Source: a virus
Length of the DNA: 64,000 nt
IMG/VR virus record: IMGVR_UViG_3300043468_001540
Coordinates: 37,995 to 101,994 of that record
Strand: one strand, 5' to 3'
Shown: in pieces, positions 37,855 through 57,280 of the stretch
Position numbering within the stretch: position 1 is the first letter of the stretch
Layout: each line of letters starts with the position of its first letter
Translations under genes and position numbers: made by a program
Notes under the pieces: generated by a model
Told to the model about the DNA's origin: nothing
What the model saw: only the letters and a program-made list of their open reading frames with translations
Databases searched by the model: none

Positions 37855-39450
37855 TTATGTAAGTGGCGTGATCGGCCCTTGAAACGACCACGTCTCATCA
37901 ATAGAGACAGTTTTTGTCTCATTTGATATAGTTTTATTTTGATTCTCCAAAACAGGATTTAAGCCTAGACTTGTATACTGGCTAATAACTCTTGAAACCT
38001 CTTGTTGAACTATAGTTAATAAGGTATTAATTTGAGCAGATGGTTTTCCCACTATACTAACAGAAGAAGTTATTTTAGATCTAGGACTAGTTCCTAGATT
38101 TTGAACATTATGCTCCCTTGCTAAAAACGCAGAAGTTAATGGGGTATGAATTGTTACGGCTGGTATATAACTTACGTTAGAAGTTAAGGAAAGTGCGTCT
38201 GGGTGCAGAGCAGTTTTTTTGTCAGAATACTCCACCTTATAAGATATTGTTGCATTATATTGATCATAAGTAATGCTCTCATTTAAAGCTTTATTGAGTA
38301 AAGTATTCGTAGAACCAACTTCTTTCGTATATTCATCAGAAGCAAACGAAAAAGGTTTAAAAGTCTGACGAAAGTAATCTTGAACTTTTTGCCACCTTGT
38401 TACTATATTTCCATATTTACAAGTAATATTGGCTGAAACGGTAACATTAGTCGTACATTTCAACACATCCTGATCGATAGTAATCTCTAAATCATTATCT
38501 ATCTCGGTAGAGAAATCATCATTAAAAGAAGCGGAAAAAGAAAGCTGATTTATATGAGGAGATTCTGTTACTTCTTGCGACAAAAATCTATTAGACAGCA
38601 CTTTTTTAAAAATATTTATACTTGCGTTATTACAAATATTAAATAAATTTAATTTATTAAAATCTGATCGCAAATTAGTAATATTGTTACTTGATAAAGT
38701 CCCATTTATTGTTACAGAAACAAAATTATCTTCCGTATTAGAAGAAATATCTAAAGTATAAGAGAGAATAGAATTAGATGGATTTTCTTTATTTATCGAT
38801 TTTTTATAAGTACCTTCCCAAGAATAAGTATTATTAAATCTGTCTATTGTTTCGGTCTCAGTTTGTAACAAGAATGCATTAGAATTATTTTTAACAAGAA
38901 TCGGATTAATCGTGGGTAGAGCTTTTCTTTGCGTAACCCATTCTTTTGCATTTTGTATTCCATTTTTAGATTGAGTTACGATACCATCCGCTGAAATTTT
39001 TCTTGTATAATTTGTTATATCATCAGAATCCTCTGAGAATGAAATTTCATCAACAGGATTCATCACACCGAAACTTTCAGAAAACAATTTTTGATCGTAA
39101 ATGGAGATATCTATCGAATATGGAGTAAGCGCATACCATTTAGATTCTTCAAAATTAATAGACTTAATAATAGTATTATAACCAGTATATATAGGTACGC
39201 CGCTTTCTCTTATCTCTAAAGTTTTAAAATTTTGTCTAAAATTATCCAGCAACTTATCTTTTGCCTCGTTTAAATAGTAAAAACTGTTTTCTCCGCCAAT
39301 ATATTTACCTGAAATTTGACCCTCTAAAGTTAAATTTGTTACTTGATTCCATTTTTTACCAAAATCTATAAATTCCTGACTCACGCCAACAAAAGGCGTC
39401 GGACCTAAACCCGAAAAAGCATTTTTTCCATTATAATAGATTTCGACCAT
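37855..39450 (-). CDS. tail structural protein (beta-rich, possibly paralogous to 39456..41114)
   Basis: Position after the tape measure gene; repeated beta-strand patterns (LTLEGQI, VTINGTL). Confidence 0.55.
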   Translation of the reverse strand: MVEIYYNGKNAFSGLGPTPFVGVSQEFIDFGKKWNQVTNLTLEGQISGKYIGGENSFYYLNEAKDKLLDNFRQNFKTLEIRESGVPIYTGYNTIIKSINFEESKWYALTPYSIDISIYDQKLFSESFGVMNPVDEISFSEDSDDITNYTRKISADGIVTQSKNGIQNAKEWVTQRKALPTINPILVKNNSNAFLLQTETETIDRFNNTYSWEGTYKKSINKENPSNSILSYTLDISSNTEDNFVSVTINGTLSSNNITNLRSDFNKLNLFNICNNASINIFKKVLSNRFLSQEVTESPHINQLSFSASFNDDFSTEIDNDLEITIDQDVLKCTTNVTVSANITCKYGNIVTRWQKVQDYFRQTFKPFSFASDEYTKEVGSTNTLLNKALNESITYDQYNATISYKVEYSDKKTALHPDALSLTSNVSYIPAVTIHTPLTSAFLAREHNVQNLGTSPRSKITSSVSIVGKPSAQINTLLTIVQQEVSRVISQYTSLGLNPVLENQNKTISNETKTVSIDETWSFQGPITPLT

Positions 39451-39455
39451 ATGCT

Positions 39456-41114
39456 TTAAGAATATTTATATATCTCCTCGTATGTAAGTGTTTTCTCTAT
39501 CTCATCGGAAGTAAAGCTGGCTGATTCTAAATACTGATCTTTATGTGGCCCAGTAAAACTATTACGATTGAAACCCGCTTTTAATTTCATCGAAGCTAAA
39601 TAATCCAAGCCTCTAAATTGCTGATCGGCAGAAACGCACCCAACTTCTAATTTAACTGATACTTTATGCTCGCCCAGTTTTAATTTCCCAACGTTTTGTT
39701 GTAAAGCATATTTTCTATTTGGAATAATATAATCTTTAACTATAGGCATTAATCCAGAGTCACTTCTTTCCACTGTAAATTTTTGTGCGCCGGTAATAGC
39801 CGGATCATCACTATACGAATAAGAATAAGAAATTTCACCAATGGCTATCTTTTTTGTTACGTTCTTATTTGTATTTTTTAAACCCGCTCCGCTCTTATCT
39901 TTCGCGTCAAGATTGTAATATCCGTTTACTCGTGAAAAAATACCACTTTTAATATTAGTCCAACCCGTGGAAGCATTAGTATATCTTTCATTTGTATTTT
40001 TTTTACCAAGTCCTTTTATGGAGCCATCTTCCGCTGCGGTCCAAATTCCACTATTATCCCTATTCAAAGTAATAGACCTCTCAAAAGAATATGTGTTGTT
40101 TGCATTTTTCTGGTCATTGGTGAAAGTAATAGTATAATCAGCAGTACCTTCGAATTTATTTATTTGAGTAGTCTTTTCTACTATATAAGTAGTATTTAAG
40201 CTAGGAGCACCGGTTAATCCAAATTTAGTTATATAATTATTAAAAAAATTTGTACATCTAGACGCTGGATTCGGAGATACAGTAGCTTCTAATTGTTCTC
40301 TCAATGCTAAAAGTAAATTGTCCTCTTTAGAGGGGGTATTTGATTCAGCTTTTATCGAGCATTTTTCGGTAACAGTTGCTATTCCATCTTCTGATAGGTT
40401 TAAAGAAAAATCTCTATTTACAGAATATGGTTTAGTTGTATTATTTCCAGTATTATATGAAAAACTTTTTTGAAAACCACATTTACCCGCAATCAAATCA
40501 TAAGTTTCGCTATATGTAGAAATATGATCAGTTCTGTATGTATATACGCCAGTAGCCAAACTACTAGGCAGGGTTTTAAGCAAATCATACCCCAAATTCT
40601 GAGCAAGCGCAATAAGATCTAAATTGTCAGAAGTATCATTAGCATCATATTGGACATCTACAGAGTGCTCCCCTTCTAAAACTCTATTATGCGAATCAAA
40701 ATTTAAAGTCAAAGACTCGCTTAAATCTTTAATTAAATAAAGTTTTTTATTTAATATATTTAAACCATTAAATTCAGTTCCATATTTATTTTGTTGTAAA
40801 TCAAAAGTAGATTTAACATTCAAAGTGGCTTTATATTGGGTTGTTCTCACCCAATTACCAGAATCAATAGATAATTCAGTTACCTTCCCAAAGCCAAAAG
40901 GTTCACCATTAATAATAACCTCTTGAAGATTCTTGGCTTCATTTAAAAGCGTCATCGCCCCACCAAAAACTTTTTTTACCCCATTTGAATTCATTAAATC
41001 CAATATATAACCCTGTATTGTTATAACTTTAGTACAAGATATAACAAAAGAGTTCTCTCCCATGAAATTATTTTCATGAGAATATCCCATTAAATTTACA
41101 TTATCAAATATCAT
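39456..41114 (-). CDS. tail structural protein (distal-tail position)
   Basis: Immediately downstream of the tape measure gene. Start moved to the ATG at 41114 (MIFDNV), which follows a TAAAATT leader. Confidence 0.55.
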   Translation of the reverse strand: MIFDNVNLMGYSHENNFMGENSFVISCTKVITIQGYILDLMNSNGVKKVFGGAMTLLNEAKNLQEVIINGEPFGFGKVTELSIDSGNWVRTTQYKATLNVKSTFDLQQNKYGTEFNGLNILNKKLYLIKDLSESLTLNFDSHNRVLEGEHSVDVQYDANDTSDNLDLIALAQNLGYDLLKTLPSSLATGVYTYRTDHISTYSETYDLIAGKCGFQKSFSYNTGNNTTKPYSVNRDFSLNLSEDGIATVTEKCSIKAESNTPSKEDNLLLALREQLEATVSPNPASRCTNFFNNYITKFGLTGAPSLNTTYIVEKTTQINKFEGTADYTITFTNDQKNANNTYSFERSITLNRDNSGIWTAAEDGSIKGLGKKNTNERYTNASTGWTNIKSGIFSRVNGYYNLDAKDKSGAGLKNTNKNVTKKIAIGEISYSYSYSDDPAITGAQKFTVERSDSGLMPIVKDYIIPNRKYALQQNVGKLKLGEHKVSVKLEVGCVSADQQFRGLDYLASMKLKAGFNRNSFTGPHKDQYLESASFTSDEIEKTLTYEEIYKYS

Positions 41115-41118
41115 AATT

Positions 41119-44100
41119 TTAGGCAACCATTGTTGACCCTCCGCCCCCTCCAACAACTGGGGCCTGTTTAATATTTAGTTTTTCCATAACAGCAGCAATT
41201 TGTTTCTTTACTTCTGCTATTTGGGTATCGAGTTGCTGATTAATATTATTAACTCCATCTACATTTACAGCTAAATCTACGCTTACATTATTTGTTTGAG
41301 ATGTTCCTCCGGTTGCGCCCGCGCCCGCCGCAGGCCCGGCATCTTTTGATCCATCTTTCGTATTTGTATTTTGCCCAGCTGAGAACTTATCAACAAGGGC
41401 TTGGTTCCAAGTGCCAAGATTTGTATTTAACGACTTTATCTCAGACCCAAGAGAGCTAACAGCGTCACCGCCAATCGTTTCAGTTTTAACAGGAGTAATT
41501 GGAGCCCCTGTCACCGACCCAGTTGTGGCCGGTGCATTTTTACCAGTTGTAAACTTATCAACAAGAGCTGGATCGTAAGTACCATCATTTACTGAAGGAG
41601 TAATTGGTTTAGCGTCCACCTTTGTCGCTGGAGCCGTGGTAACTGGAGGAGGTAAAGGTGGTAAGCCGCCACCACCTGGAGCCATTCTTGCGGCAGTAAC
41701 TGGATCTGAAAAAAAGCTACGAAATACATTAACTACCTTATCCATGAAACCTTCTGGGAGAGGTTCTGCTGGTTTTGGGGCTTCTGGTTTTTCCGGTTCC
41801 GGGGGGGTAGGAGGAGGGGTATTGAGTATATCAATAATCGATTGAATTTGACTAGAAATACCACTTAACGCAGCATTAGAACTTTGTTGTTGACCCTCAA
41901 ATATTGATTTAAATGCACTTATAGTTTTTTGGTCTCTCGCCTCCGCTTCTTTTTGAGCGTCAGCTAAGCCTGGAGCGGCTTTTGCCACTTGTTTTTCCGC
42001 TGCGGCCTCGCTCTTATCGGCATTTTTGTCAAATTTCTTTTCGTCCATTGTTCCGGTTAATTGAGCCATTTGATTTTCCGCAATCCCGCGAACACCTCCC
42101 GGCTGACTAGTCAGGGATTTAATCATACTTTCAATAACACCTTTAGCAGTACCACTTTCTGTAGTAGACGCCATATTCTTTAAAGATGCGATTTTTGCAT
42201 TTATATCTTTTTCAATAGTATCTACTCCTAATTTATATTCTTTACTATTAGCGTCCGGTTTATACAATCCGCCGCTCATGTCTTGCATAGATTTTATTAA
42301 TTGTAAAATATTCCGACCCCCCTCTTCCCCCATTTCTTCTTTACCTTTTTTATAAATATAACCACCTGATCCCGAATTTGTAGCTTCGAAGGAACCTGGC
42401 CCCTGTTTTACATTTTGACCAATTTTTTGTAGTATATCATTTACAGGTTGCGTAGATTCTTGGGCCGCTGACATAAACGGATTTTCATCAATTGGATTTA
42501 TTACCGAATCTGCGCCGCCAAAAACTTTTAAAGATTTTTGCAAATTCTGCATCGCAACTTTTTGAGTGGCTTCTTTTGCGACTACTTGGGTTTGTTGTTT
42601 AGCCGTTTGATTTGTAGCTACTATACTCGAATTTGCAGCATTAACCGCGTTTGTAACCTGAGTTGAGAATGCAGCTTGATCTTGAGCAGACAGTCCCAAC
42701 TCACTTGCAATTTTTTGTAATTCAGATATAATAGCGGAATCATCTATCAACCCACCCTTTTCATCTCTTGGTTTTAAAAGTTCTGAAATCTTTGACCCCA
42801 AATCAGTATTAAGAGTGTTAAGAAGATTTTGAAACCCCCCTCCAGCTTGGGCTAAATCAAGCGCACTTTTCGTTCCTGATTTTTGTCCATAGCTACTAGC
42901 TCCTATTGCTGATAATAAATTATTTATAGCTCCTCCGCCCCCGCCCTCTTCGTCGCCCTTGTCAGAAGCGTCTGAAATTGGTTTTAATAAATTTTGTAGA
43001 ATACTTTCTTGTAACTCTTGCCCCGTAGCTTGATTTGTGGATTCGCGGGTACTAGATATCTTATTTAATTGAACATCTATAGTTTTTTTCAAACTTAAGG
43101 CGGAGTCTTCCCCAGTTAAAGCCACGGCTCTTTCTTGGCGACCGGAAAGAGAACTTGAGGTCCGACTTTTCGAAAAGTCCATTTCAGATAATTTATAAGA
43201 ATTCATAGTCTTATTAAAATTTAAGATATTATCTGCATTTTTTTGTAATATTGCCGCCGCCTGTTGAACCTCTTTAGTAAGAGTTTGCTTTAACTTGTTA
43301 AAAGCGTTCTCAGCAGATTTATCCACACCATCTATAATATCCGCCGTATCTTCAAATTGTTGAGCTGTTTGTTCTAGCGCTTGATTTAGAAAACCAATTG
43401 CCCCAATTAAACTTGTGTCAGCTAAGCCTGATAAAGCTTTTTTAATCGGTTCTCCTATATTTAAATTTTGGAGTGTTTCGTCGAACTTTTGGCGAGAATC
43501 TACTGTTGATAATTTGTTACCTCTAACTTCCTCAGCAGACTTAAATTGTCCGGATGCCATCGAAGTTTCCGCAAATTTAGATTTAACAAAAGTATCTTGT
43601 TCTTTACTTTTAAAAGACACTCCAAATTGTTTCATAAAACTCTGACCAACATCACCGAAGTCTTGGGCTAATTTTAAATCAGCAAATTCCTTAGCCTTTT
43701 TATTAGAAATTGCCGCTAAAGCTTCTGAGGCTTTATTTAATGATCCTGCGGATAATACTGATTTTTTTTGTTCTTCGGTAAGTCCATTTAAACTAGCAGC
43801 AAAATTCTTTCTAGTTTTATTTATCAACTCTTGATTATCACCCGCCAGTGCGTTTTGATAATCTTCATAAGCTTGAAGAACTGTAGATGCCCCATTATTT
43901 AATTGATTAAGCTCTTGAGATGATTTTAGAGCTGCCGCTGAAAGTTCTGGCATATCGGTAGATAATTGTCCGATTATATCTGGTAAAGACAATAAAGCGC
44001 CAGCGGCGGCACCAAGCCCCGCGCCAACAAGCGTCCCAGCTCCAGGGGCAATTGCACTACCTATCATCGCACCAGTTCCGGCAAAAGCCCCGATTTGCCC

Positions 44101-47100
44101 AACAGAACTTGCGGCTGAAGCGCCAACACGTCCAGCTTTAGAATTTTGTGGGATACTATTTGCTATCGTTTCAGCAATAACTGGAGCGGCAAAAGCTAAA
44201 GGACCCCCGGCCCCTTTTAAGCCAGCTTTCAATTTCATTGAAGTTGGCACCTTGCCGTCTACTTTAGTGTTTTTGATTTTATCAAAAGTTTCTTTTGTTA
44301 TTTCGCCTGCATTCAACTGATCCCTAGCTGCTTGCCTGTTAGCTTTAGCCATTTCAATAATAGATTTTTGATAATCTTCTTTATTATAATTTAAATAAAA
44401 AGCTAAACTTCCAAGCTGGGTTCCCACTGCCGCTAAATTAGCCGCTAATGAAGGCCCTTCATTTTGAACGGCTTCAGTGGTATTTTCTACTTGACCAGTT
44501 AAAGATTGCAATGAACTATTAAATTTATCAACAGTCCCTGTCGCCGAAGCATCTGCGCCATTTGCAAAATTCGGAATATATCCTTTTGATTTATTTCTTA
44601 TAGCTTTATTTTCAGAAGTAACCGACCCCTCATCTCTTTTATTAAAAACGCCAAGTCCTGTAGGATTAGCGCCCGAAACAAGGGCATCTTTCTGTGCTAC
44701 GTATATTTGGCTTTTAGGCAATCCAGACTCTTGAAGTTCCCGCCCAATCGAATCACTCAAAGCATTAGCAAAATTAGGAATATAACCTTCAGCTGCATTG
44801 GGTATTCCATATTTTTGTGGAAAAATTCCACTTAATTTTTTAATAAATTTAGTTGGTAAATATTGTTTTAATTTTTGGTATTTATCGCGCTGTTCTCTTA
44901 GCCCTTGAATTTTAACTGCAACTTCTTCTGGGGTAGTCTTTGTAATACGGGATGGTAAGGTCGATAATTCTGCTAAAATTGGATCTAATCTTTTATCTAA
45001 TTTTGAATTAATTCTACTTAAAATTTCTGGAAAAACATCGGCACGATTTTTTATATTTGGACCAATTTGATTTATAGTTGAGATTACATGGTCGGCAAAT
45101 ATTTTAGAAATTAATTTTGAGTCTCCAGCTAATATAGCCGCTCTAGCGTCAGTGCCACTAATACCCTCGGTTCTTTCACCAACATTTACTTTATATCCAG
45201 CATCTTTATATTTTTGAAGATCTTTTTCTTGCTTGTCCGAACCAACAAAAGCCATACTACCACTTTTAGCGGACAAGAATTTTCTTCTTTTACCCACGGG
45301 ATCAACTTCAAGCATTTTAGGTATAGTGCCGCCAGTAAAAAGATCGGAATTAGCACCAATAACATTAGCACCTGTAAATGTTTTCTTTGCCAAGTATTTT
45401 CTTGTTTTTTGATCGAAAATTGCAGTTCTAAAAGAATGTGGATCTTTTGGGTCTATTTTACCCCCCTCTTTTGAAACAGCTACAATAAAATCTTCTGGGG
45501 AAATACCCTGCTTTTTGGCCATTTCCATCATATCTAAATGACCCCTAGTCGAAGGAGAAAAAGCACCATAAGAAAGACCAATTTGTTTCTTTTCTACCAG
45601 CGGTAACTCATCGCCTTTTTTCCTTTTTAATTTAAAATTTTCATTTATACCCATCACCCTTGTTTTATTCGGGCCTAGAACTGAAAGCGCCATTGCTTCA
45701 ATGTAACCACTATCTAAAGAGGCACCTTGGGATGTACCAGCGGAGCGACCAAAAGCAGTGTTAGATTTACCTTGTAAAATTTGAGAATCTCTTAAGTCGC
45801 GTCTTCTTTTAATTTCTTTTTGCTCTTCTGGAGTAGAAGAAGACATAATCATTAATCTATCTAAACCAGACCAATATCCACCTTCTAACGCTTTTGTAGT
45901 TCCAACTAAAGAAGCCCTAGTGTCAATTATTTCATCAACTCTTCCAATATCTTTTGGTGTAATAATTGGAATTCTTTCCGTTTTACGAGCTTTAGCATTA
46001 TCGGCTTTTTCCGCATTTTTACCGCCTAGCATCATAGTGCTTTTGCCAGCGCCAGGAACGCCGAAAATTCCAGTAAATTTTTTTATAGATCCGGATTTTC
46101 TAGCTTTTTTTGCCATGTCGCCTAGATACTTATGATATTCTGGCAACCCACCTTTTAATCCTAATTTTTTAATTTCTTCTGCGACCGTGGCTTCATATCT
46201 AGGATCAGATAAAACATCCCCGTCTAAATATCCGACTCTTCTATTTGCAAAATTTGGAATGTACCCACTCGCTCTAGATTTCCAAAATTTTAAAGCACTC
46301 GCCCCTTTAGGGGTAGATGCGAATTTAGATAATTTAGAAAAATCATCTTTAGTGTAACCAGCGGACTCAAATTGAGGCTTTACATAATCCCAATCTCCCA
46401 TTTTTAAGGCGTCTAACGTAAATGACCTTCCAAAGCTAGTACCCAAAGCTTTTGATAAATTTAATACTTTGTCTTTTCCTTTTAATGGAAAGCTCATTGG
46501 GGTCATAAATTTTTCTAAACCAGTAACATTAACCCCAAGTTTTTGCGCAGCCTTTATATAAGCCTCATCTTTTAATCCAGACCCCTCTTTTAACTTCTTA
46601 GTAATATTGGAATTTACAAGGCTTGCTCTTTTTGAAACTTCTTGAATTAGATTTGGATTGGCAAAATTAGGAATATATCCAGCCGCTTTAGATTTTACTT
46701 TTTTACCCTTTTTCCCCTCAACGGGTGGAGCTTTAAGATATCCATCAGTAAGACCCTTCCTAATAACATCATAGCCTAAAGATTCGGAATACTTTGCCTC
46801 ATAATCGCCTGGCATATTATTAAACAACGATCTCAACTCGGGATTTGGATTAACAAAGTCAATAGTAGCGCTAGCGCCACCTTTTCTTGCCGCTTGTGCA
46901 ACGGTCGAATTTGTTGCCTGTGTTACGGCTGTTTCAAAAACTGTCCCAGCTATACTGTTTAGTGAACCAAGATTCGCTAGTTCATTTGGGCTTGAAATCT
47001 TAGACGTGTCACTTCCAAAAAAACTAGTATATCTATTTGTATAATCAACTACAAATTTGCCAAGACCATCCACAAGATTTTCCTCTTCTGGCTGTATAGC

Positions 47101-49272
47101 TTTTTTAGGATTAAACCCACCCGCGTTTATCCTCGCCTGATACACTTGGTTTTTCGGTCCGAACTGCCCATCCTTATCTTTATACCTAGGTTCTATCTTT
47201 TTATAAGAATCTGACTTTTTACCATAGATAAGACCTAATCTTTCCGTGCCACCAAGATCTACGACTTCTGGTTTTACTGGGGACGGCGCTTTAGGTCTAG
47301 ACTCCCCCAAAGCAGCGTTAACTTTTTCTTTACCATAGGCGCTAGATAACTGTGATCGACTATAAGTGCCCTTTTTAAAACCCTCAACTGCTGTTTCGAA
47401 TGGTACATCTTTACCGATTGCAGCAAAATTAGGAATATAACCCATTGCCATAGACATGGATTTTTGCATGTCTCTGGTTAAAATTGCAGTTTCTCCACTC
47501 CCGCCGAAATTTGGAATCAGCTTTTCACCACTATTAATAATAGTAGGTTCGCCATTAATATTAAACGGGCCAATTGGTTTATCATTAGATTTAGCGCCGC
47601 CAACTCCACGTTTTACGTCACGAGATTCTTTTGAGAAGGCAGGAATATAGCCATCAGCTTTTGTTTTCGGCGTTTTAACTGTAGGAACGCCTTCATTAAC
47701 TCGAACTCCTTTTGAATATAAACTAGAAGCGATCTTGGCACTTAATTGTGACTGTTTTTGTAATTCTAAAGTTTGTAATTTAAAACTATTCAATAATTGC
47801 AAGGCGACTTCATTTACAGAAACAGTGCCTTTCATCATTGATTGCAATAATTTAGGATTTTGACCTAATATCGCATTAATACTTTTTTGAATATCAGCTT
47901 GTTGTTTAGCCGATGTATTTAAATTTAAGACTTCTTTAATACTACCTTTAGCATAAACAGTAAAATCTTTTAATAATTTTATTAATACTCCGCCTATAAG
48001 AGCCAAACCTGGACCAGCTATAACTTGAGCCAAGCCGTCAATAATACCTTTTCCTAAAACGGCACCGTAACTATTACCATCAGCTTCATTTGCGGTTCCC
48101 AAAATACTATTAGCGCCCCCAACTACTCTTTCAAATGTTGGGCCTAATAATCTCTCACCAACAGATGCAGATAATTGTTTTGCATTTTCTTTTAAAATAT
48201 TTAATTGAGCTGCGTATGTTTTATTTAACTCCTCATTTCTCTGTATAGCCTGATCAGTTGATGCAGCCGAAACTTGTAACGCTCTATTATAAATAGAGTT
48301 TTCTTTACCGAGATCTTGCAAAGTGGCTTTTAAAATGTTTATTTGGAAAACGCCACCGACAGCCTCAGCCACGGCCGCCTTTTGAGTCGTTCCAAGTCCC
48401 TCATAAACATCCGATAAATCTTTAAGTAATTGAACTGTATTTTTAAGTTTTCCACTTGCGTCCGTTGTACCTACCCCTAAGTTTTCTAAAACATCAATAA
48501 CTTTTTGTCGCTCCAATCGAGTAAAAATTGTTTTAAAAGAGTTACCAATTACAGATCCACCACGAGCGGTAGTTTGTTGTGCCGAAGTAACTAATGCAAT
48601 TAATTCGTTTAAGCTAACTCCAGATTGTGCGGCACTACTACCAACTCGACTAATAGCCTCAGCTAAATCAGCCGAACTTACGGCGAAAGCTGCGTCTACG
48701 TTAGCAAATTTATTTACAATTTCAGTACTATTTACCGCTTCGGAAGCAAAAGAGTTAATTGACGCAGTAAGAGAATCAACAGCTTTGGCGGCGTCTAAAC
48801 CACTTAATCTTGATAAAATTAAAGCGTCACTAGTTCTTTTAAGTGTCTCTGTAACAGAAAGCCCCTGTCTAGAAAATTCTGTAGCGGCAACCGCTACTTG
48901 ATCAAAAGACTGTCCAGTATTTTTGGCGATACTAAAAAGACCGTCTCCAAAAGCGGCTATTTCTTTTGTAGATACGTTTAAAATAACATTTATATCTTGA
49001 AGAGATTTTTGAACATTAATAGTGCTTTGAACCAGTTCGTCCATTGCGGTTTTAACACCAAAAATAATACCAGCACTAGCTCCGAAAGCCAAAACGCGAG
49101 CATTCGAAGCGTCTAAAGATTTATTAAACTCAGAAACCTGAGATGTTATTCTACCAAGCGGCTGAGAACCTTTTGTATCAATTTTTATCGAATAACTTTT
49201 AGCAACAGTTTTTCTAATTTCATTCTCTAACTGTCGAGTATCTCCAGCAATATTAAGTTTAATGTCCGCCAT
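41119..49272 (-). CDS. tail tape measure protein (TP901/PhageMin_Tail-type core) with internal enzyme cassettes
   Basis: N-terminal IAKNTGQSFDQV...EFSRQG...AVSSADLAEAISRVGSSA...GGSVIGNSFKTIFTRL is the classic TMP core. Follows the tube and chaperone genes; has a glycine-zipper hydrophobic region and central GYIPNFA-delimited modules. Confidence 0.92.
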   Translation of the reverse strand: MADIKLNIAGDTRQLENEIRKTVAKSYSIKIDTKGSQPLGRITSQVSEFNKSLDASNARVLAFGASAGIIFGVKTAMDELVQSTINVQKSLQDINVILNVSTKEIAAFGDGLFSIAKNTGQSFDQVAVAATEFSRQGLSVTETLKRTSDALILSRLSGLDAAKAVDSLTASINSFASEAVNSTEIVNKFANVDAAFAVSSADLAEAISRVGSSAAQSGVSLNELIALVTSAQQTTARGGSVIGNSFKTIFTRLERQKVIDVLENLGVGTTDASGKLKNTVQLLKDLSDVYEGLGTTQKAAVAEAVGGVFQINILKATLQDLGKENSIYNRALQVSAASTDQAIQRNEELNKTYAAQLNILKENAKQLSASVGERLLGPTFERVVGGANSILGTANEADGNSYGAVLGKGIIDGLAQVIAGPGLALIGGVLIKLLKDFTVYAKGSIKEVLNLNTSAKQQADIQKSINAILGQNPKLLQSMMKGTVSVNEVALQLLNSFKLQTLELQKQSQLSAKIASSLYSKGVRVNEGVPTVKTPKTKADGYIPAFSKESRDVKRGVGGAKSNDKPIGPFNINGEPTIINSGEKLIPNFGGSGETAILTRDMQKSMSMAMGYIPNFAAIGKDVPFETAVEGFKKGTYSRSQLSSAYGKEKVNAALGESRPKAPSPVKPEVVDLGGTERLGLIYGKKSDSYKKIEPRYKDKDGQFGPKNQVYQARINAGGFNPKKAIQPEEENLVDGLGKFVVDYTNRYTSFFGSDTSKISSPNELANLGSLNSIAGTVFETAVTQATNSTVAQAARKGGASATIDFVNPNPELRSLFNNMPGDYEAKYSESLGYDVIRKGLTDGYLKAPPVEGKKGKKVKSKAAGYIPNFANPNLIQEVSKRASLVNSNITKKLKEGSGLKDEAYIKAAQKLGVNVTGLEKFMTPMSFPLKGKDKVLNLSKALGTSFGRSFTLDALKMGDWDYVKPQFESAGYTKDDFSKLSKFASTPKGASALKFWKSRASGYIPNFANRRVGYLDGDVLSDPRYEATVAEEIKKLGLKGGLPEYHKYLGDMAKKARKSGSIKKFTGIFGVPGAGKSTMMLGGKNAEKADNAKARKTERIPIITPKDIGRVDEIIDTRASLVGTTKALEGGYWSGLDRLMIMSSSTPEEQKEIKRRRDLRDSQILQGKSNTAFGRSAGTSQGASLDSGYIEAMALSVLGPNKTRVMGINENFKLKRKKGDELPLVEKKQIGLSYGAFSPSTRGHLDMMEMAKKQGISPEDFIVAVSKEGGKIDPKDPHSFRTAIFDQKTRKYLAKKTFTGANVIGANSDLFTGGTIPKMLEVDPVGKRRKFLSAKSGSMAFVGSDKQEKDLQKYKDAGYKVNVGERTEGISGTDARAAILAGDSKLISKIFADHVISTINQIGPNIKNRADVFPEILSRINSKLDKRLDPILAELSTLPSRITKTTPEEVAVKIQGLREQRDKYQKLKQYLPTKFIKKLSGIFPQKYGIPNAAEGYIPNFANALSDSIGRELQESGLPKSQIYVAQKDALVSGANPTGLGVFNKRDEGSVTSENKAIRNKSKGYIPNFANGADASATGTVDKFNSSLQSLTGQVENTTEAVQNEGPSLAANLAAVGTQLGSLAFYLNYNKEDYQKSIIEMAKANRQAARDQLNAGEITKETFDKIKNTKVDGKVPTSMKLKAGLKGAGGPLAFAAPVIAETIANSIPQNSKAGRVGASAASSVGQIGAFAGTGAMIGSAIAPGAGTLVGAGLGAAAGALLSLPDIIGQLSTDMPELSAAALKSSQELNQLNNGASTVLQAYEDYQNALAGDNQELINKTRKNFAASLNGLTEEQKKSVLSAGSLNKASEALAAISNKKAKEFADLKLAQDFGDVGQSFMKQFGVSFKSKEQDTFVKSKFAETSMASGQFKSAEEVRGNKLSTVDSRQKFDETLQNLNIGEPIKKALSGLADTSLIGAIGFLNQALEQTAQQFEDTADIIDGVDKSAENAFNKLKQTLTKEVQQAAAILQKNADNILNFNKTMNSYKLSEMDFSKSRTSSSLSGRQERAVALTGEDSALSLKKTIDVQLNKISSTRESTNQATGQELQESILQNLLKPISDASDKGDEEGGGGGAINNLLSAIGASSYGQKSGTKSALDLAQAGGGFQNLLNTLNTDLGSKISELLKPRDEKGGLIDDSAIISELQKIASELGLSAQDQAAFSTQVTNAVNAANSSIVATNQTAKQQTQVVAKEATQKVAMQNLQKSLKVFGGADSVINPIDENPFMSAAQESTQPVNDILQKIGQNVKQGPGSFEATNSGSGGYIYKKGKEEMGEEGGRNILQLIKSMQDMSGGLYKPDANSKEYKLGVDTIEKDINAKIASLKNMASTTESGTAKGVIESMIKSLTSQPGGVRGIAENQMAQLTGTMDEKKFDKNADKSEAAAEKQVAKAAPGLADAQKEAEARDQKTISAFKSIFEGQQQSSNAALSGISSQIQSIIDILNTPPPTPPEPEKPEAPKPAEPLPEGFMDKVVNVFRSFFSDPVTAARMAPGGGGLPPLPPPVTTAPATKVDAKPITPSVNDGTYDPALVDKFTTGKNAPATTGSVTGAPITPVKTETIGGDAVSSLGSEIKSLNTNLGTWNQALVDKFSAGQNTNTKDGSKDAGPAAGAGATGGTSQTNNVSVDLAVNVDGVNNINQQLDTQIAEVKKQIAAVMEKLNIKQAPVVGGGGGSTMVA
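44563..47652 (-). repeat. dispersed peptide repeat GYIPNFA inside the tape measure gene
   Basis: Exact copies at 47422-47442, 46660-46680, 46246-46266, 44767-44787 and 44563-44583; degenerate GYIPAFS at 47632-47652 and LIPNFG at 47503-47520. Confidence 0.95.
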
Positions 49273-49327: not shown

Positions 49328-50338
49328 TTATCCACCTTCCCTAGCGCTTAAATAATCATTTTTTTCTATAATACCACCATTCTCTTTAGCAAGTTGTAAT
49401 AAACTTTTTCCCTTAATTTTTTCAATTTTTACGCCCATATCTTTCAAATCATTGTTTGTCGCTCCAACGTAACTAGAAACATTATTATTAGCGTCTCTAT
49501 TTTTCTTTATAGACCCTTGTTTTCCATTTTGTTGCCCATCTATGAATGAAACAAATTTTTCTGGTTCAGATAGAATTTCATCCGGGATAGCTTTTCCTAT
49601 CTCCGCTCTATTTTTAATAAAATTTCTATACATCTTTCCATATAAAAGTAAATTACTTTGATATCTCGTACATTTAAACAAAGGCGCTCCCCAAAAATCC
49701 ATAGGATCGCTTGAAATAAAAATTAAGTTTTGAAAAAAACCTGTAGCGGCTAAGCACTGGATTCTTTTCTCGGAAAGATTATCATTAATAATATAGAATT
49801 TATCTTTTATCTTTTGTAAATCGATAACATCTTCTCCCTCAATCGAGCTATCTTCAAAAAGTTTCTGAGTGAAAGAGCTGTCTTTAAAAACATGATTTTT
49901 AATTAAATCTTCGTTTGATCGAGATTCCGCATAGTCTTCTGCCGTATAACCAACTATTTCGCGCCGATCTTTCGTATAAGATAAAAGAATATAATTATTT
50001 TTATCTATTTGTTTTTGTATTTCTTCTTTTTGTGAGGTATAAAGTAATTTATCTTTTGTTTTAGCTAGGTTCCTAAGGGTAATTTTTAGAAAGTCAATCC
50101 TTGATTCGTTCTCAGATGACCACCAATTTCCATCAATAGCGTCCTTAATTTTATCAGCTTCTTTAAATAAACCAATAGCAAGCGCTTCTTGTAAATATTT
50201 ATCATAGCATTTAACGCTATTAAAATATTCATTTATAGATAAATGCTTAAAATAAATTATAGTTTGATCAATTTCTTGAATAGAAAAGCCATCACATATT
50301 TCAGAATAGAGCTTTCCATATTTATCTTGATCATTCAC
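49328..50338 (-). CDS. putative tail assembly chaperone (TMP-proximal)
   Basis: Position between the tube and TMP genes; helical and charged; GTG start. Confidence 0.5.
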   Translation of the reverse strand: MNDQDKYGKLYSEICDGFSIQEIDQTIIYFKHLSINEYFNSVKCYDKYLQEALAIGLFKEADKIKDAIDGNWWSSENESRIDFLKITLRNLAKTKDKLLYTSQKEEIQKQIDKNNYILLSYTKDRREIVGYTAEDYAESRSNEDLIKNHVFKDSSFTQKLFEDSSIEGEDVIDLQKIKDKFYIINDNLSEKRIQCLAATGFFQNLIFISSDPMDFWGAPLFKCTRYQSNLLLYGKMYRNFIKNRAEIGKAIPDEILSEPEKFVSFIDGQQNGKQGSIKKNRDANNNVSSYVGATNNDLKDMGVKIEKIKGKSLLQLAKENGGIIEKNDYLSAREGG

Positions 50339-50339
50339 A

Positions 50340-51176
50340 TCACGATTTTATTTCTTCGGGGGGAAAATTACTACTTTGAGAATCAGATGTATTAACGTCG
50401 CTAGATACGCTCACGCTCGCTTGCACGGGTTCTTGTACAGTAGATTCTTTAATTGATTCTTGCTTTTCTTCTTCTTTTTCTTCGCTTTTGGAATAATCCT
50501 GATCATAAAGAGCGAAATCGTTTTTACTATCAATTCTTCCCAAGAACCAAAGAGTGATTAAATAAGCCGATCTTTTTAATACTATTTCTAAATAGTTATC
50601 TTTGCTTTCGCTATCTTCAATTAAATCGTACTGTTCAAGTTTATCATTAAAAGTTTTACCGCCGCAAACATGGGAATAAGACCCATCCTCATTTATTTTG
50701 TATGTTAAATTCAATACCCACCATAATATGGTTTTATTTCGAGCCTTAGCCTCGGCGGTATTTTCAAATATAGAAATTTGAGACGATTCAAAACTTTGAA
50801 TATCTGAACGTATATCATTTATTCTGTCAGTTTTTTCTTTTAATTCTTTTAAGTTGTCTTCTGTTTGATTTTTCTCATCTATCGATAAAAGCTGCTGAAT
50901 ACTAGAAGATAACTCTTGAAACTCTAGTAAAAGTTGCCCATATCTTTCCCTCTCTTCATCACTTATAACTCCCCCACTATTTGATAATATAGTACCCCAG
51001 GCCGCTTTTGGTAAAATGCCAGCTTTTGCATATCTAGAAACTTCTGCGGCAAAAAAAACTTCACCATCTTCTTTTAATCGGCGATTTGGCTTTAAGAATC
51101 CAAAATTATGAGATACCCCTAAATTGTCTTTATGAGTAAAATTGTATAGCCATTTTCCATTATTAGTATTTTCCAT
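50340..51176 (-). CDS. putative tail assembly chaperone
   Basis: Position; central coiled coil; acidic disordered tail. Confidence 0.5.
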   Translation of the reverse strand: MENTNNGKWLYNFTHKDNLGVSHNFGFLKPNRRLKEDGEVFFAAEVSRYAKAGILPKAAWGTILSNSGGVISDEERERYGQLLLEFQELSSSIQQLLSIDEKNQTEDNLKELKEKTDRINDIRSDIQSFESSQISIFENTAEAKARNKTILWWVLNLTYKINEDGSYSHVCGGKTFNDKLEQYDLIEDSESKDNYLEIVLKRSAYLITLWFLGRIDSKNDFALYDQDYSKSEEKEEEKQESIKESTVQEPVQASVSVSSDVNTSDSQSSNFPPEEIKS

Positions 51177-51181
51177 ATTTA

Positions 51182-51409
51182 TTATATTTTTTGGGTAAAT
51201 TTGATATCAAAATTATTTAATTGTTCTTCTATGTTTCTATAACAATCATTTCCATGATCTAATATTCTTTTTCTTAATCTTTGGAATTCCTCTTCGGAAA
51301 TTTTTCCATTTTTGTTTAGATCTTCTACTAAATACAAGAAAGAAAGATATAATTTTTTAATATCTCGATATACGAAACTTTTAACGAAATCATGTAAATC
51401 CACATTCAT
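51182..51409 (-). CDS. hypothetical protein
   Basis: 75-aa ORF with its own GTGTAA / AAGGT-repeat leader. Confidence 0.65.
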   Translation of the reverse strand: MNVDLHDFVKSFVYRDIKKLYLSFLYLVEDLNKNGKISEEEFQRLRKRILDHGNDCYRNIEEQLNNFDIKFTQKI

Positions 51410-51450
51410 AAGACCTTAAATTACCTTGTACCTTAAATTACTTTACACCC

Positions 51451-51491
51451 AAAAAAATAAACAGACACCGTTAAAAGTGTCTGTTTATTTT
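51451..51491 (-). terminator. Rho-independent terminator downstream of the tail tube gene
   Basis: 15-bp inverted repeat AAAATAAACAGACAC / GTGTCTGTTTATTTT with an 8-nt loop and a T-run on the minus strand. Confidence 0.85.
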
Positions 51492-51514
51492 AATTTTAAC
51501 CTACTGTATATTAA

Positions 51515-52654
51515 TTAAGAAACAATTAGTCCAGATGGTGGATAAGCTTGAACTAAAGTGTGGGATCCAGAGATGAACACACCTTTAGTTAGATCTTGAG
51601 GTCCACCGATTTGAACTTCGTAAGTAGCACTCATAGAGGCGTTATCTCCGATAGAAGATGTAAAGTTCTGACTAACTAATTTAGCTCCTTTAAATTGATA
51701 AATCATAGCGGCTGGTTTTGTGCTTCCACAACCAGGTTGATTTAAAACTATATTAAAGTCATAACTTGGGTTGTTACAAAGTAGGTCGGCCAAGTTACCA
51801 TTAGAAAGATCTCCAACCTGCGCATTAACTTCTAAAGTAGCGGTAACAGGAAAATCAATTTCTCTTGAAAACGCAAATTTTGTACCAAGTTTTTGTAATG
51901 GAGTTCTGGCTAAATCGAAAGATAAAGTGAAATCTTGAACTTTCAAATCAGTTTCAGTAAAACCAACAACAGAATCGGTTGGGAGAGACATTACTATATC
52001 GCCAGGTTGCAAGGCGTTGGGTATACTCACACCAGTCATGCTTGTAGCTCTTGGTAATTTGAATCTAGTTCCCGCTAAAATATTCCCGTTTGTCGGATCA
52101 ACGCCAGGCCCCTCTGTTCCAGTCGTAGCGTTAGCATTACCATAAACTCTAATATTTAAAGCCTCTAATTCGACGGTAGCAGTAGTTAATTCGCCCACAG
52201 CGCCATTGACACTATAAGATGTTATAAATCCATTTCCAATACCGATAACACCACTAGTTGTTCCGGCGTATTCAGAGGCATCATTGCCTTCATCGGCAAC
52301 TAGTAAATAGAAATTTTTTTCATCAGTAGTTTTACTAAGCAATCCAGAAATACAGGAAACATTGTTATTACTTCCACTGGGAGTTACAGATAAGCCTAAA
52401 TATCTTTCATTAAGACCATTAGTTACATAATAGCTTAAACTGGAAGAAACCGTCGGCGCTTCTGTTTCAATACGATCGATAGCCGCTAAATTTCCGTACT
52501 GGTTGACGTCAGTAAAATTTCTAGAAAAATCTTCATCAAAAGATTGAACTCTAGCTAATTGAGTAACAGTATTTAAACCTGTTTGCATTACGCTCGGTGC
52601 TACTTGCCCAGCATAAAGAGCAAGTACTTGATAAATTGTTCTATTTCTCGCCAT
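51515..52654 (-). CDS. major tail (tube) protein
   Basis: MARNR start; LARVQS...VNQYGNLAAIDR...PTVSSSLSYY; FTLSFDLARTPLQKLG...IDFPVTATLEV (duplicated tube-like halves); followed by a strong terminator. Confidence 0.72.
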   Translation of the reverse strand: MARNRTIYQVLALYAGQVAPSVMQTGLNTVTQLARVQSFDEDFSRNFTDVNQYGNLAAIDRIETEAPTVSSSLSYYVTNGLNERYLGLSVTPSGSNNNVSCISGLLSKTTDEKNFYLLVADEGNDASEYAGTTSGVIGIGNGFITSYSVNGAVGELTTATVELEALNIRVYGNANATTGTEGPGVDPTNGNILAGTRFKLPRATSMTGVSIPNALQPGDIVMSLPTDSVVGFTETDLKVQDFTLSFDLARTPLQKLGTKFAFSREIDFPVTATLEVNAQVGDLSNGNLADLLCNNPSYDFNIVLNQPGCGSTKPAAMIYQFKGAKLVSQNFTSSIGDNASMSATYEVQIGGPQDLTKGVFISGSHTLVQAYPPSGLIVS

Positions 52655-52695
52655 AATTATAATTACATCTCATTTTTCAAAATGACACTTAAATT

Positions 52696-53544
52696 TTAAG
52701 AAATATATCTAATATTACTAATATCAAAATCAATAAAAGCTGATATACATTTTTTATTCATTTTACCATTGTCTATTTCTTCAAGTTTTGAAACCGACAC
52801 TTTTTCAATAAAAGCTAAATTATTACGCGGAGCGGTTTTACAAACATCTATATAATTAAAATTAATATTACGCAAATCCCCGAAACGATTAAATGGTAGT
52901 TCCGAACTTTCTAAAACAGGGAAATTTTGATGCAATGAATCCGTCATTATTGAACTCAAAGAATCTAGAGAAAAACTGTTAGAAGCTAAGACAATACACC
53001 TAATAGAAGTACTTGTTGAATGCTGCCCACCAAAAGCGAAAGGCTCATTTTGATTAAAAGTATTTTTTATAAAAATACATGGAAAGGGTATGTCTAAATA
53101 GCCGAGAGGCTGTGTCGCCGACTTAACCATTGACATAATAGTAGGGGCTTTCTCGAAAAGAAGAGTTTCTTCTTTTTCATCTGTATAGTATAAATTATAT
53201 TCTTTATAAGAAAATTTTGCAGAAATATTTTTTACATTTACGGTATGATTATCAAAAATAACCCTACCTTTATTAAAATCAATAGCAAGACCACTTGTTG
53301 CTTTATCTATTTCAGTATTATCAACATAAATTCCACTAGGTATAAAAGCCCCTGGAACACTAGAATCATATACCCATTGACGATAAGGAGAGGCGTATAT
53401 TGAAGTATTATTATCAAAATTTGGATCTTGTGTCTGATATAAAGCCCCACTGTGATTATAAAAGCCACCTCCAATTGCTGCAATCCTATGATCGAACCAA
53501 AGGTAAAAACTTGATAATAATTTATTATGAAAACTAGACTTCAT
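52696..53544 (-). CDS. putative tail terminator/completion protein
   Basis: Position before the tube gene; FPCIFI...EPFAFGG...IRCIVLA pattern. Confidence 0.5.
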   Translation of the reverse strand: MKSSFHNKLLSSFYLWFDHRIAAIGGGFYNHSGALYQTQDPNFDNNTSIYASPYRQWVYDSSVPGAFIPSGIYVDNTEIDKATSGLAIDFNKGRVIFDNHTVNVKNISAKFSYKEYNLYYTDEKEETLLFEKAPTIMSMVKSATQPLGYLDIPFPCIFIKNTFNQNEPFAFGGQHSTSTSIRCIVLASNSFSLDSLSSIMTDSLHQNFPVLESSELPFNRFGDLRNINFNYIDVCKTAPRNNLAFIEKVSVSKLEEIDNGKMNKKCISAFIDFDISNIRYIS

Positions 53545-53545
53545 T

Positions 53546-54558: not shown

Positions 54559-54559
54559 T

Positions 54560-55102: not shown

Positions 55103-55121
55103 ATTTAAGTTTACACTTAAA

Positions 55122-55487: not shown

Positions 55488-55519
55488 ATACTATATTAAT
55501 AATTAAATCTTTTTTAATC

Positions 55520-55561
55520 AAAAAAAAAAAAAAAACGGGGGTTTATAAGCCCCCGTTTTTT
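55520..55561 (-). terminator. Rho-independent terminator downstream of the major capsid gene
   Basis: Minus strand: AAAAAACGGGGG-cttataaa-CCCCCG followed by a long T-run. Confidence 0.9.
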
Positions 55562-55582
55562 ATACACTATTTCTAAGTTGTA

Positions 55583-56707: not shown

Positions 56708-56741
56708 TTTTTTTATTTCTATTATATATATTTTTTATTTA

Positions 56742-57278: not shown

Positions 57279-57280
57279 AA

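What the first reader, a model, noticed from the sequence alone, without database searches (positions are those of the whole stretch)
44788..46245. TMP cassette: P-loop kinase fused to a HIGH-superfamily nucleotidyltransferase
Seen in the 493-aa block: Walker A GVPGAGKST (46036-46062), a Walker-B-like EIID and a lid-like KRRRDLR. These are followed by YGAFSPSTRGH (45538-45570; (T/H)xGH signature as in CoaD GxFDPxTxGH and NadD), FVGSDK and GERTEGISGTDARAAI (SxT/S-x-x-R motif). Known: P-loop kinase plus HIGH NTase pairings occur in cofactor synthesis (NadR, CoA synthase, PAPS synthase), and some phages rebuild NAD+ to counter NAD-depleting defences. Inference: an injected two-step phosphorylate-then-adenylylate enzyme acting before phage gene expression, either restoring a cofactor such as NAD+ or modifying a host nucleotide, RNA or protein. 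The substrate cannot be read from the sequence.
Basis: partly seen in the sequence, partly recalled or inferred. Interest (0 to 1): 0.85.

Follow-up and report, generated by a model that had tools for sequence, protein, structure and literature searches.

The report
Kinase-nucleotidyltransferase cargo in phage tape measure
A giant tail tape measure protein of an uncultivated aquatic phage carries a swappable insert that folds as a kinase-like ATP-binding domain joined to a nucleotide-transferring enzyme, so the phage probably delivers a ready-made enzyme of unknown substrate into the cell along with its DNA.

Summary
Residues 1010-1495 of a 2717-aa tape measure protein (TMP; window 41119-49272, minus strand) hold every motif at the stated coordinates.

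- **Conservation.** The block recurs as one unit in 96 protein clusters, nearly all inside 2000-7300-aa TMPs. The Walker A Lys, Asp1108, Arg1176, the TxGH His and the ISxTxxR Ser/Arg are invariant in 73 sequences.
- **Cassette.** In 121 close TMP relatives the N- and C-terminal modules are constant. The stretch between them is an array of 61 segment families separated by GYIPNFA-like motifs, and this block occurs in 6 of them at varying positions.
- **Function.** The NAD+-salvage reading is possible but not favoured. Domain order is reversed relative to NadR, the kinase half matches ribosylnicotinamide kinase (RNK) only at Walker A, and no PnuC or Nampt partner was found.

The "EIID" Walker B is not conserved. 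The substrate and actual injection remain inferences. I class it as a new variant of a known kind.

The parts
41119..49272 (-). Tape measure protein gene, 2717 aa (P0001)
   Evidence: Single open frame. Pfam PhageMin_Tail 9.7e-30 and PHROG TMP families. Same gene order around the 3524-aa homologue in IMG/VR locus L001.
47653..49272 (-). Constant N-terminal TMP module (aa 1-540). It includes PhageMin_Tail (aa 116-307 = 48352-48927) and a hydrophobic segment (aa 409-442 = 47947-48048).
   Evidence: Segment family 0 is present in 121 of 121 related TMPs. Pfam. Hydropathy scan.
46246..46266 (-). GYIPNFA linker motif directly upstream of the block (aa 1003-1009)
   Evidence: The six copies in this protein (five GYIPNF and one GYIPAF) use different synonymous codons. 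There are 2-9 copies in each of 120 related TMPs.
45601..46245 (-). P-loop kinase-like domain (aa 1010-1224). Walker A is at 46036-46062, with K1077 at 46042-46044. Invariant D1108 is at 45949-45951 and invariant R1176 at 45745-45747.
45094..45600 (-). HIGH-superfamily nucleotidyltransferase core (aa 1225-1393). The GxFxPxTxGH motif is at 45538-45570 and the RTEGISGTxxR motif at 45133-45180.
44806..45093 (-). Long two-helix arm after the NTase core (aa 1394-1489), with conserved R1410 and R1459
44767..44787 (-). GYIPNFA linker motif directly downstream of the block (aa 1496-1502)
41119..44565 (-). Constant C-terminal TMP module (aa 1570-2717), with a glycine-zipper hydrophobic segment at aa 1745-1768 (43969-44040)
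   Evidence: Segment family 1 is present in 116 of 121 related TMPs. Hydropathy scan.

Best explanation
**What it is.** The block is a self-contained, catalytically competent two-domain enzyme carried as an exchangeable cargo cassette inside the tape measure protein of a clade of large uncultivated aquatic phages.
- Domain 1 (aa 1010-1224) is a very divergent P-loop phosphotransferase of the nucleotide-kinase type, nearest to zeta toxin and AAA_33.
- Domain 2 (aa 1225-1393) is a HIGH-superfamily nucleotidyltransferase.
- A basic helical arm follows (aa 1394-1489).
- The two domains pack into one body, and both active sites are under strong purifying selection.

**How it probably works (inference).** By analogy with every known fusion of these two folds (NadR, PAPS synthase, CoA synthase), the domains most likely carry out two consecutive ATP/NTP-dependent steps on one nucleotide-type or phosphate-bearing substrate. 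The order of the steps is unknown.
- The enzyme sits between the two hydrophobic segments of a protein that leaves the tail ahead of the DNA and engages the inner membrane.
- It would therefore act at the cytoplasmic face in the first moments of infection, before any phage gene is expressed.
- Only a few copies arrive per virion. A low-abundance target is therefore more likely than bulk refilling of a cofactor pool. Such a target could be a signalling or precursor nucleotide, a nucleic-acid end or a tRNA.

**Shown here:** fold, motifs, conservation, TMP context and cassette behaviour.
**Inferred:** catalysis, delivery, timing and substrate class.
For: - **Coordinates and motifs:**
- **Unit conservation:** 96 clusters, almost all inside giant proteins. 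PhageMin_Tail was found in 10 of 16 scanned members and in P0009 and P0020. JGI annotates many of them as a TP901-family TMP.
- **Model:** pLDDT 92.9 and pTM 0.87 from a 32-sequence alignment.
- **NTase fold:**
- **Invariant residues in 73 sequences:** K1077, D1108, R1176, H1245, R1282, R1291, Y1355, R1367, S1372, R1377.
- **Cassette behaviour:** only 5 of the 120 closest TMPs carry the whole block and one more carries the P-loop half alone. Splitting 121 TMPs at the GYIPNFA-like motif gives constant end modules and 61 segment families in all. This block is family 20, found in 6 of 121 at array positions 1, 3, 4, 5 and 6.
- **Hydrophobic segments flank the cargo region:**
- **TMP at the inner membrane:** lambda TMP was labelled by TurboID fused to the inner-membrane protein ManZ during injection (PMC13190303).
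- **Charge:** net positive across the family, about +16.
Against: - No enzyme activity, virion proteomics or structure exists for any member.
- No conserved classical Walker B could be placed without coordinates.
- A folded 54-kDa domain, probably in several copies, is hard to fit in a tail-tube lumen. How and where it is carried is unexplained.
- TMPs are documented at the periplasm and inner membrane. Release of a TMP-borne enzyme into the cytoplasm has not been documented, as far as my literature searches show.
Confidence: 0.55

Rival explanations
1. NadR/NARP3-like NAD+ salvage. The kinase half phosphorylates nicotinamide riboside and the NTase half adenylylates NMN. This would restore NAD+ that Sir2, TIR or Thoeris-type defences destroy, delivered ahead of phage gene expression.
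For: - The NTase profile hits the phage NadR-like enzyme Bas30_86 (PDB 9X6F) at E 0.002, with the same T-R-G-H variant of the HIGH motif.
- That enzyme is shown to rebuild NAD+ against Sir2-HerA (PMC13464706).
- hhalign gives 92.6% to a NadR-type NMNAT profile over 141 columns.
- The top Foldseek hit is NadM NMNAT.
- The standalone relative P0097 weakly hits NMNAT models, below their cut-offs.
- Fusions of a P-loop kinase with a HIGH NTase are known in jumbo phages (PMC7824862).
Against: - Domain order is reversed.
- The kinase half aligns to RNK only around Walker A, at 15.6% probability.
- No NCBIfam or Pfam NMNAT or NadR model reaches its cut-off.
- No conserved aromatic residue lies in the stretch aligned to NadR's NMN-binding loop, and the invariant R1282, R1291 and Y1355 have no NadR counterpart.
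- No PnuC-like or NAPRTase/Nampt gene was found in the related 104-kb contig, and no ORF of at least 100 aa with more than 4 hydrophobic segments in the window. Both records are incomplete.
- NadR-like genes are free-standing in 735 phage records, yet tblastn with the block matched no phage record.
- A handful of enzyme molecules per infection could hardly refill a cofactor pool (inference).
Confidence: 0.15
2. Host-poisoning or take-over enzyme of the zeta-toxin or AvrRxo1 type. The NTase makes or binds a dinucleotide or nucleotide-sugar, and the zeta-like kinase phosphorylates one of its hydroxyls. Examples are UDP-GlcNAc and NAD+. The result would be an inhibitory metabolite that stalls cell-wall or redox metabolism at entry.
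For: - ESM features give AAA_33 and Zeta_toxin as a lead.
- The order Walker A Lys, invariant Asp after strand 2, then two conserved Arg 15 residues apart (R1161, R1176) recalls the zeta/PezT catalytic set. That comparison is from memory and was not tested.
- A related giant TMP carries an ADP-ribosyltransferase toxin domain, so toxin-type cargo does occur.
Against: - No Zeta_toxin or AAA_33 HMM hit, even at E 0.05, in 16 members.
- No evidence on substrate.
Confidence: 0.15
3. Nucleic-acid or tRNA-directed enzyme. A PNK-like kinase works with a TmcAL-like adenylate-forming domain whose basic helical arm holds RNA or DNA. It would modify or repair a tRNA or a polynucleotide end, for example the entering genome end, against anticodon nucleases or exonucleases.
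For: - The best sequence match in PDB is MJ0951, a TmcAL-family protein (E 9.7e-6).
- Pfam HIGH_NTase1_ass matches 10 of 16 members, best 2.9e-6.
- The TmcAL alignment is the longest, with 217 residues including the arm.
- The module carries a net charge of about +16 across the family.
Against: - The MJ0951 match covers only 40 residues around the ISGT motif.
- The TmcAL N-terminal family (HIGH_NTase1) was not matched.
- Long helices are also ordinary TMP material.
Confidence: 0.12
4. The block is not delivered at all. The giant ORF is a polyprotein cut at the GYIPNFA motifs in the producing cell. The enzyme would then work late in infection, for example by activating a sugar or polyol for the phage's large glycosylation machinery. 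Alternatively the block is a non-catalytic structural plug.
For: - The linker motif is repeated and kept at the protein level with varied codons, as expected of a recognition or cleavage site.
- Fitting folded 54-kDa domains in a tail tube is difficult (inference).
Against: - Invariant catalytic residues argue against a purely structural role.
- Cutting at every motif would also sever the N-terminal module from the C-terminal one.
- More distant homologues carry the block without GYIPNF motifs.
- No protease or cleavage data exist.
Confidence: 0.1

Closest known systems
NadR and phage NARP3 enzyme Bas30_86 (PDB 9X6F/9X6H; PMC13464706)
   Same: A phage-encoded fusion of a P-loop kinase and a HIGH-superfamily nucleotidyltransferase. 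It has the same T-x-G-H variant of the HIGH motif. The NTase domains are homologous at profile level (hhalign 92.6%; E 0.002).
   Different: The order is NMNAT then RNK, the reverse of this block. The kinase halves align only around Walker A, at low probability. Bas30_86 is a free-standing gene paired with a PnuC transporter, whereas this block is embedded in a TMP with no partner found. The NMN-loop aromatics are not conserved here.
Phosphopantetheine adenylyltransferase (CoaD) and NMN/NaMN adenylyltransferases (NadD, archaeal NMNAT, NadM)
   Different: Sequence identity is 10-19%, and no curated model reaches its cut-off. This block has an extra beta-hairpin insert, its own invariant residues (R1282, R1291, Y1355) and a 90-residue helical arm.
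TmcAL / UPF0348 (MJ0951, PDB 3GMI; B. subtilis TmcAL 5Y0N)
   Same: Closest sequence match in PDB around the R-x-E-G-I-S-G-T-x-x-R-E-A-I segment (E 9.7e-6). Pfam HIGH_NTase1_ass matches 10 of 16 homologues. Both have an NTase core followed by a helical C-terminal region.
Zeta toxins (epsilon/zeta, PezT) and AAA_33-type kinases
   Different: No HMM-level match. The similarity is weak. There is no antitoxin context.
Polyvalent proteins of phages and conjugative elements (Iyer et al. 2017, PMC5512222), and TMPs with embedded cell-wall hydrolases
   Same: A giant virion-associated polypeptide carrying unrelated enzymatic domains, thought to enter with the DNA. The domain content is variable and shuffled.
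   Different: The carrier here is the tape measure protein itself, with cargo set between fixed N- and C-terminal modules and delimited by a repeated heptad. A term search of that paper found no 'P-loop kinase', and its 'nucleotidyltransferase' hit is the Pol-beta type. Known TMP-embedded enzymes act on the wall and need no ATP; that last point is from my own knowledge.

Membership tests
HIGH-signature nucleotidyltransferase superfamily (CTP_transf_like, PF01467 and relatives) | Rossmann-like alpha/beta core shared with PPAT and NMNAT | tested here: met
HIGH-signature nucleotidyltransferase superfamily (CTP_transf_like, PF01467 and relatives) | (H/T)xGH motif after the first strand | tested here: met
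   T1242-R-G-H1245. T is kept in 69, G in 71 and H in 73 of 73 sequences. It aligns to the PPAT and NMNAT motifs.
HIGH-signature nucleotidyltransferase superfamily (CTP_transf_like, PF01467 and relatives) | C-terminal ISxTxxR phosphate-binding motif | tested here: met
   S1372 73/73, T1374 71/73 and R1377 73/73. It aligns to MJ0951 and NadR.
HIGH-signature nucleotidyltransferase superfamily (CTP_transf_like, PF01467 and relatives) | Score above the Pfam gathering threshold | tested here: not met
   The window's block scores 16.5-18.1 bits against a cut-off of 21. Four of 16 homologues match at up to 7.7e-6. Membership is therefore at superfamily level, not in the curated family.
NadR / NARP3-type bifunctional NMNAT-RNK | Domain order NMNAT then RNK | tested here: not met
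   Here the P-loop domain comes first (model; hhalign ranges).
NadR / NARP3-type bifunctional NMNAT-RNK | Kinase half homologous to ribosylnicotinamide kinase | tested here: not met
   A profile-profile comparison aligns only 37 columns around Walker A, at 15.6% probability.
NadR / NARP3-type bifunctional NMNAT-RNK | NMN-binding loop with conserved aromatic residues | tested here: inconclusive
   No aromatic residue is kept in at least 55 of 73 sequences between block positions 278 and 345. The alignment there is weak.
NadR / NARP3-type bifunctional NMNAT-RNK | Adjacent PnuC-type transporter gene | tested here: not met
   No PF04973 match in the related 104-kb contig. The window has no ORF of at least 100 aa with more than 4 hydrophobic segments. 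Both records are incomplete.
P-loop nucleotide/zeta-type kinases | Walker A GxxGxGK[ST] | tested here: met
   G1071 71, G1074 67, G1076 72, K1077 73 and S/T1078 73 of 73 sequences.
P-loop nucleotide/zeta-type kinases | Kinase-type fold | tested here: inconclusive
P-loop nucleotide/zeta-type kinases | Conserved Walker B or catalytic acidic residue, and lid arginines | tested here: inconclusive
   The 'EIID' Asp is kept in 28 of 73 sequences. D1108 (73/73), D1138 (72/73), D1017 and D1019 (72/73 each), R1161 (71/73) and R1176 (73/73) are candidates. Their positions in 3D could not be read because no coordinates were available.
P-loop nucleotide/zeta-type kinases | Match to a curated kinase family model (AAA_33, Zeta_toxin and others) | tested here: not met
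   No such family matched at E<=10 for the half alone or at E<=0.05 in 16 members.
Phage tail tape measure protein | TMP signature domain and position among tail genes | tested here: met
   PhageMin_Tail 9.7e-30. PHROG TMP families down to 1.8e-49. Conserved gene order with L001. The flanking genes themselves have no family hits.
TmcAL family (HIGH_NTase1 + HIGH_NTase1_ass) | Match to both family models | tested here: inconclusive
   HIGH_NTase1_ass matches 10 of 16 members, best 2.9e-6, but scores 14-15.5 bits against a cut-off of 26.7 in the window protein. HIGH_NTase1 was not listed.

The most novel reading that the evidence does not exclude
The central part of these tape measure proteins is a polymorphic effector array. 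Dozens of interchangeable, mostly unrecognisable cargo domains ride through the tail and work inside the cell before the genome is expressed. The kinase-nucleotidyltransferase cassette would be an ATP-dependent cytoplasmic effector of a new family. It would make or alter a nucleotide-type molecule, such as a phosphorylated dinucleotide, a capped nucleic-acid end or an altered immune signal, to disarm the host in the first seconds of infection.
Probability: 0.2. Interest if true: 0.85.

Novelty: new variant of a known kind. Interest (0 to 1): 0.62.

Why it matters
Tape measure proteins are treated as rulers and membrane conduits, and the enzymes known inside them attack the cell wall. An ATP/NTP-using two-domain enzyme with intact active sites, kept in about 90 lineages of giant TMPs, implies that part of the TMP reaches the cytoplasmic side in working order. 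TMPs could then be vehicles for pre-made effectors.

The cassette architecture gives a simple handle for cataloguing such cargo. It has fixed ends, a repeated heptad and 61 segment families in 121 close relatives. The TMP scaffold itself is very common in aquatic metagenomes, with more than 2500 homologues.

The block also defines a P-loop plus HIGH-NTase pairing distinct from NadR and NARP3. That bears on the current search for phage counter-measures that work through nucleotide metabolism.

Tried and rejected
**Searches and models that gave nothing**
- Single-sequence AlphaFold: useless (pLDDT 42.5).
- tblastn with the block and megablast with the whole TMP gene against 50,697 phage records: no match.
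- IMG/VR scan with the single block: none. A5 found one locus.
- GTDB genome scan with A5: none.
- phmmer of the block against PDB: nothing.
- PADLOC: nothing. NCBIfam: only sub-threshold hits.
- hhalign against single E. coli NadR, CoaD, NadD, CoaE and Adk sequences: weak. CoaD reached 58% over 55 columns, and the kinases aligned only at Walker A.
- Pfam on four relatives chosen to cover 13 other cassette families: only the TMP domain.

**Other negatives**
- No whole genome is held for the window, and it contains no tRNA genes.
- Literature searches for TMP plus kinase or NTase, for 'GYIPNF' and for TMP cassettes: nothing relevant.

**Readings rejected**
- 'EIID' as Walker B, on conservation.
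- The plus-strand ORFs at 45214-45474 and 45920-46135 as genes. They lie antisense inside a strongly conserved coding block.
- Host assignment from MAG labels. Related TMP N-termini sit in bins named Proteobacteria, Neomarinimicrobiota and Halobacteriovorax, which disagree with one another.
Full report
**What is there.** The window is low-GC phage DNA (28-40% per 2-kb window) with almost all genes on the minus strand. The finding lies inside one uninterrupted ORF, 41119-49272 (-), of 2717 aa. Its N-terminal part carries Pfam PhageMin_Tail (aa 116-307, E 9.7e-30) and matches ten PHROG tape-measure families, down to 1.8e-49. It also showed that the interval 44788-46245 is aa 1010-1495, bounded on both sides by the heptad GYIPNFA (aa 1003-1009 and 1496-1502). 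That heptad also occurs at aa 611, 865 and 1564, with a GYIPAF variant at 541.

**Is it more than chance?** phmmer of the 486-aa block against 1.84 billion representative proteins returned 96 proteins, 73 of them at E<=1e-30. In nearly all, the match covers query residues 2-482 as a single unit inside a protein of 2000-7279 aa. The scanned members carry PhageMin_Tail, and JGI annotates many as a TP901-family tape measure protein.

I cut the block out of 72 of these proteins and aligned it with the window's copy. Forty positions are at least 90% conserved. Invariant in 73 of 73 sequences are K1077 (Walker A), D1108, R1176, G1236, H1245, R1282, R1291, Y1355, R1367, S1372 and R1377. The 'KRRRDLR' stretch is partly conserved (R1158, R1161).

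**Fold.** The block folded alone gave nothing (pLDDT 42.5). With a 32-sequence alignment (A3) the model reached pLDDT 92.9 and pTM 0.87. I first checked in a local MAFFT trial that the motifs lined up.
- *Sequence profiles agree.* A profile of A4 hits MJ0951, a TmcAL-family protein, at 9.7e-6 on the ISGT segment. It also hits the phage NadR-like enzyme 9X6F at 0.002, and PPATs, on the HIGH motif. Pfam HIGH_NTase1_ass matches 10 of 16 members and CTP_transf_like matches 4 of 16. hhalign against a small NadR-type profile gives 92.6% over 141 columns.

**It is a cassette.**
- The first 400 aa of the TMP have more than 2500 homologues in metagenomes. The best 120 are 70-75% identical over that region.
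- Only 5 of those 120 contain the whole block, and one more has the P-loop half alone. All 120 contain 2-9 GYIPNFA-like motifs.
- Cutting 121 such proteins at the motif and clustering the pieces gives a constant N-terminal module (121/121) and a constant C-terminal module of about 1200 aa (116/121). There are 61 segment families in all, and the variable ones lie between the two end modules.
- The kinase-NTase block is family 20. It is present in 6 proteins at array positions 1, 3, 4, 5 and 6.
- The six motif copies in the window use different synonymous codons. The motif is therefore kept at the protein level and is not a recent DNA repeat.
- More distant TMPs carry the block without this motif, so the block has moved between TMP lineages.
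- Across the block-bearing proteins collected, only the N-terminal TMP domain and this block are widely shared.
- Hydrophobic segments lie on either side of the cargo region, at aa 409-442 and 1745-1768.
- The one IMG/VR relative found (L001, 66% identical block) has the same gene order around its 3524-aa TMP.

**How it most likely works.** What is shown is a compact two-domain protein with both nucleotide-binding sites under strong purifying selection, carried as optional cargo in a TMP. The rest is inference.
- Every characterised fusion of a P-loop kinase with a HIGH NTase (NadR, PAPS synthase, CoA synthase) performs two consecutive steps on one metabolite. That is from my knowledge of these pathways. 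I expect the same here.
- The order of steps is open. Kinase-first is the NadR logic. NTase-first is the logic of CoA and PAPS synthesis, where the kinase phosphorylates the nucleotide-bearing product. Zeta-type kinases also phosphorylate nucleotide-bearing substrates.
- TMPs leave the tail ahead of the DNA. Lambda gpH was the only phage protein robustly labelled by TurboID fused to the inner-membrane protein ManZ during injection (PMC13190303). An ATP-dependent domain in that position would therefore be at the cytoplasmic face.
- Only a few copies can arrive per virion. A scarce target is more plausible to me than refilling a bulk pool.
- The module is basic across the family, with a mean net charge of about +16. 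That fits an anionic substrate or partner.

**The NAD+ idea.** The closest functional precedent is real and recent. The phage NadR-like enzyme Bas30_86 (PDB 9X6F), together with a PnuC transporter, rebuilds NAD+ against Sir2-HerA (PMC13464706). Its HIGH motif has the same T-x-G-H form. Five observations weigh against it here:
- The domain order is reversed.
- The kinase halves align only at Walker A.
- Curated NMNAT and NadR models are far below their cut-offs.
- The aligned NMN-loop region has no conserved aromatic residue.
- Neither a PnuC nor a NAPRTase gene was found in the related 104-kb contig or, for multi-pass membrane ORFs, in the window. Both records are incomplete.

In addition, NadR-like genes are ordinary free-standing genes in 735 phage records, yet tblastn with the block matched no phage record. 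I give this reading about 0.15.

**Novelty.**
- Enzymes embedded in TMPs are known, and so are giant 'polyvalent' proteins injected with phage DNA (PMC5512222).
- A term search of that paper found no 'P-loop kinase', and its 'nucleotidyltransferase' hit is the Pol-beta type.
- My literature searches found no TMP-borne kinase or NTase.
- The block matches no curated family above threshold.

I therefore class it as a new variant of a known kind.

**Limits.**
- There is no activity or virion data.
- How several folded 54-kDa domains travel in or with a tail is unexplained.

Noticed in passing
window 44581-47650 (aa 541-1564 of the TMP): Six GYIP(N/A)F motifs delimit the cargo segments of this TMP. 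They use different synonymous codons. GYIPNF-like motifs occur 2-9 times in each of 120 closely related TMPs. They may be a cleavage, docking or hinge signal, and no paper in the library mentions the motif.
   Followed up: partly
TMP relatives P0113-P0227: Between constant N- and C-terminal modules, 121 related TMPs hold a shuffled array of segments, 61 segment families in all. Forty-two of these families have a median length of at least 110 aa. Four proteins covering 13 of those larger families gave no Pfam hit beyond the TMP domain.
   Followed up: partly
proteins P0017, P0034, P0041 and others: Block-bearing TMP-like proteins reach 6500-7279 aa, which is extremely long for tape measure proteins.
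   Followed up: no
one member of alignment A4: One related giant TMP has an ADP-ribosyltransferase exoenzyme domain (PF03496, E 6.7e-5), so toxin-type cargo occurs in the same kind of protein.
   Followed up: no
P0154 (3567 aa), residues 1315-1478: This close TMP relative carries only the P-loop half of the block (profile positions 2-171), so the two halves can be separated.
   Followed up: no
P0081 (598 aa) and P0094, P0095, P0097: P0081 has a degenerate Walker A. P0094 and P0095 have the classical H-x-G-H form of the motif. P0097 (193 aa) looks like a free-standing NTase relative with weak NMNAT-model hits. Whether these are whole genes or contig fragments is unknown.
   Followed up: partly
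It is far commoner than the kinase-NTase cassette. Its fold was not tested here.
   Followed up: no
window 51182-51409 (-): A 75-aa ORF two genes upstream of the TMP has a weak EF-hand-like calcium-binding loop match, below the Pfam cut-offs.
   Followed up: no
loci L014-L018: TMP N-terminal domains 49-58% identical to the window's sit in aquatic MAGs labelled Proteobacteria, Neomarinimicrobiota and Halobacteriovorax. The labels disagree, so these are probably phage contigs swept into bins, and the host stays unknown.
   Followed up: no
window 37855-41156 and 49328-58996: None of the genes flanking the TMP that I scanned matched any Pfam or PHROG structural family. This phage's virion module is very far from described phages.
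   Followed up: partly
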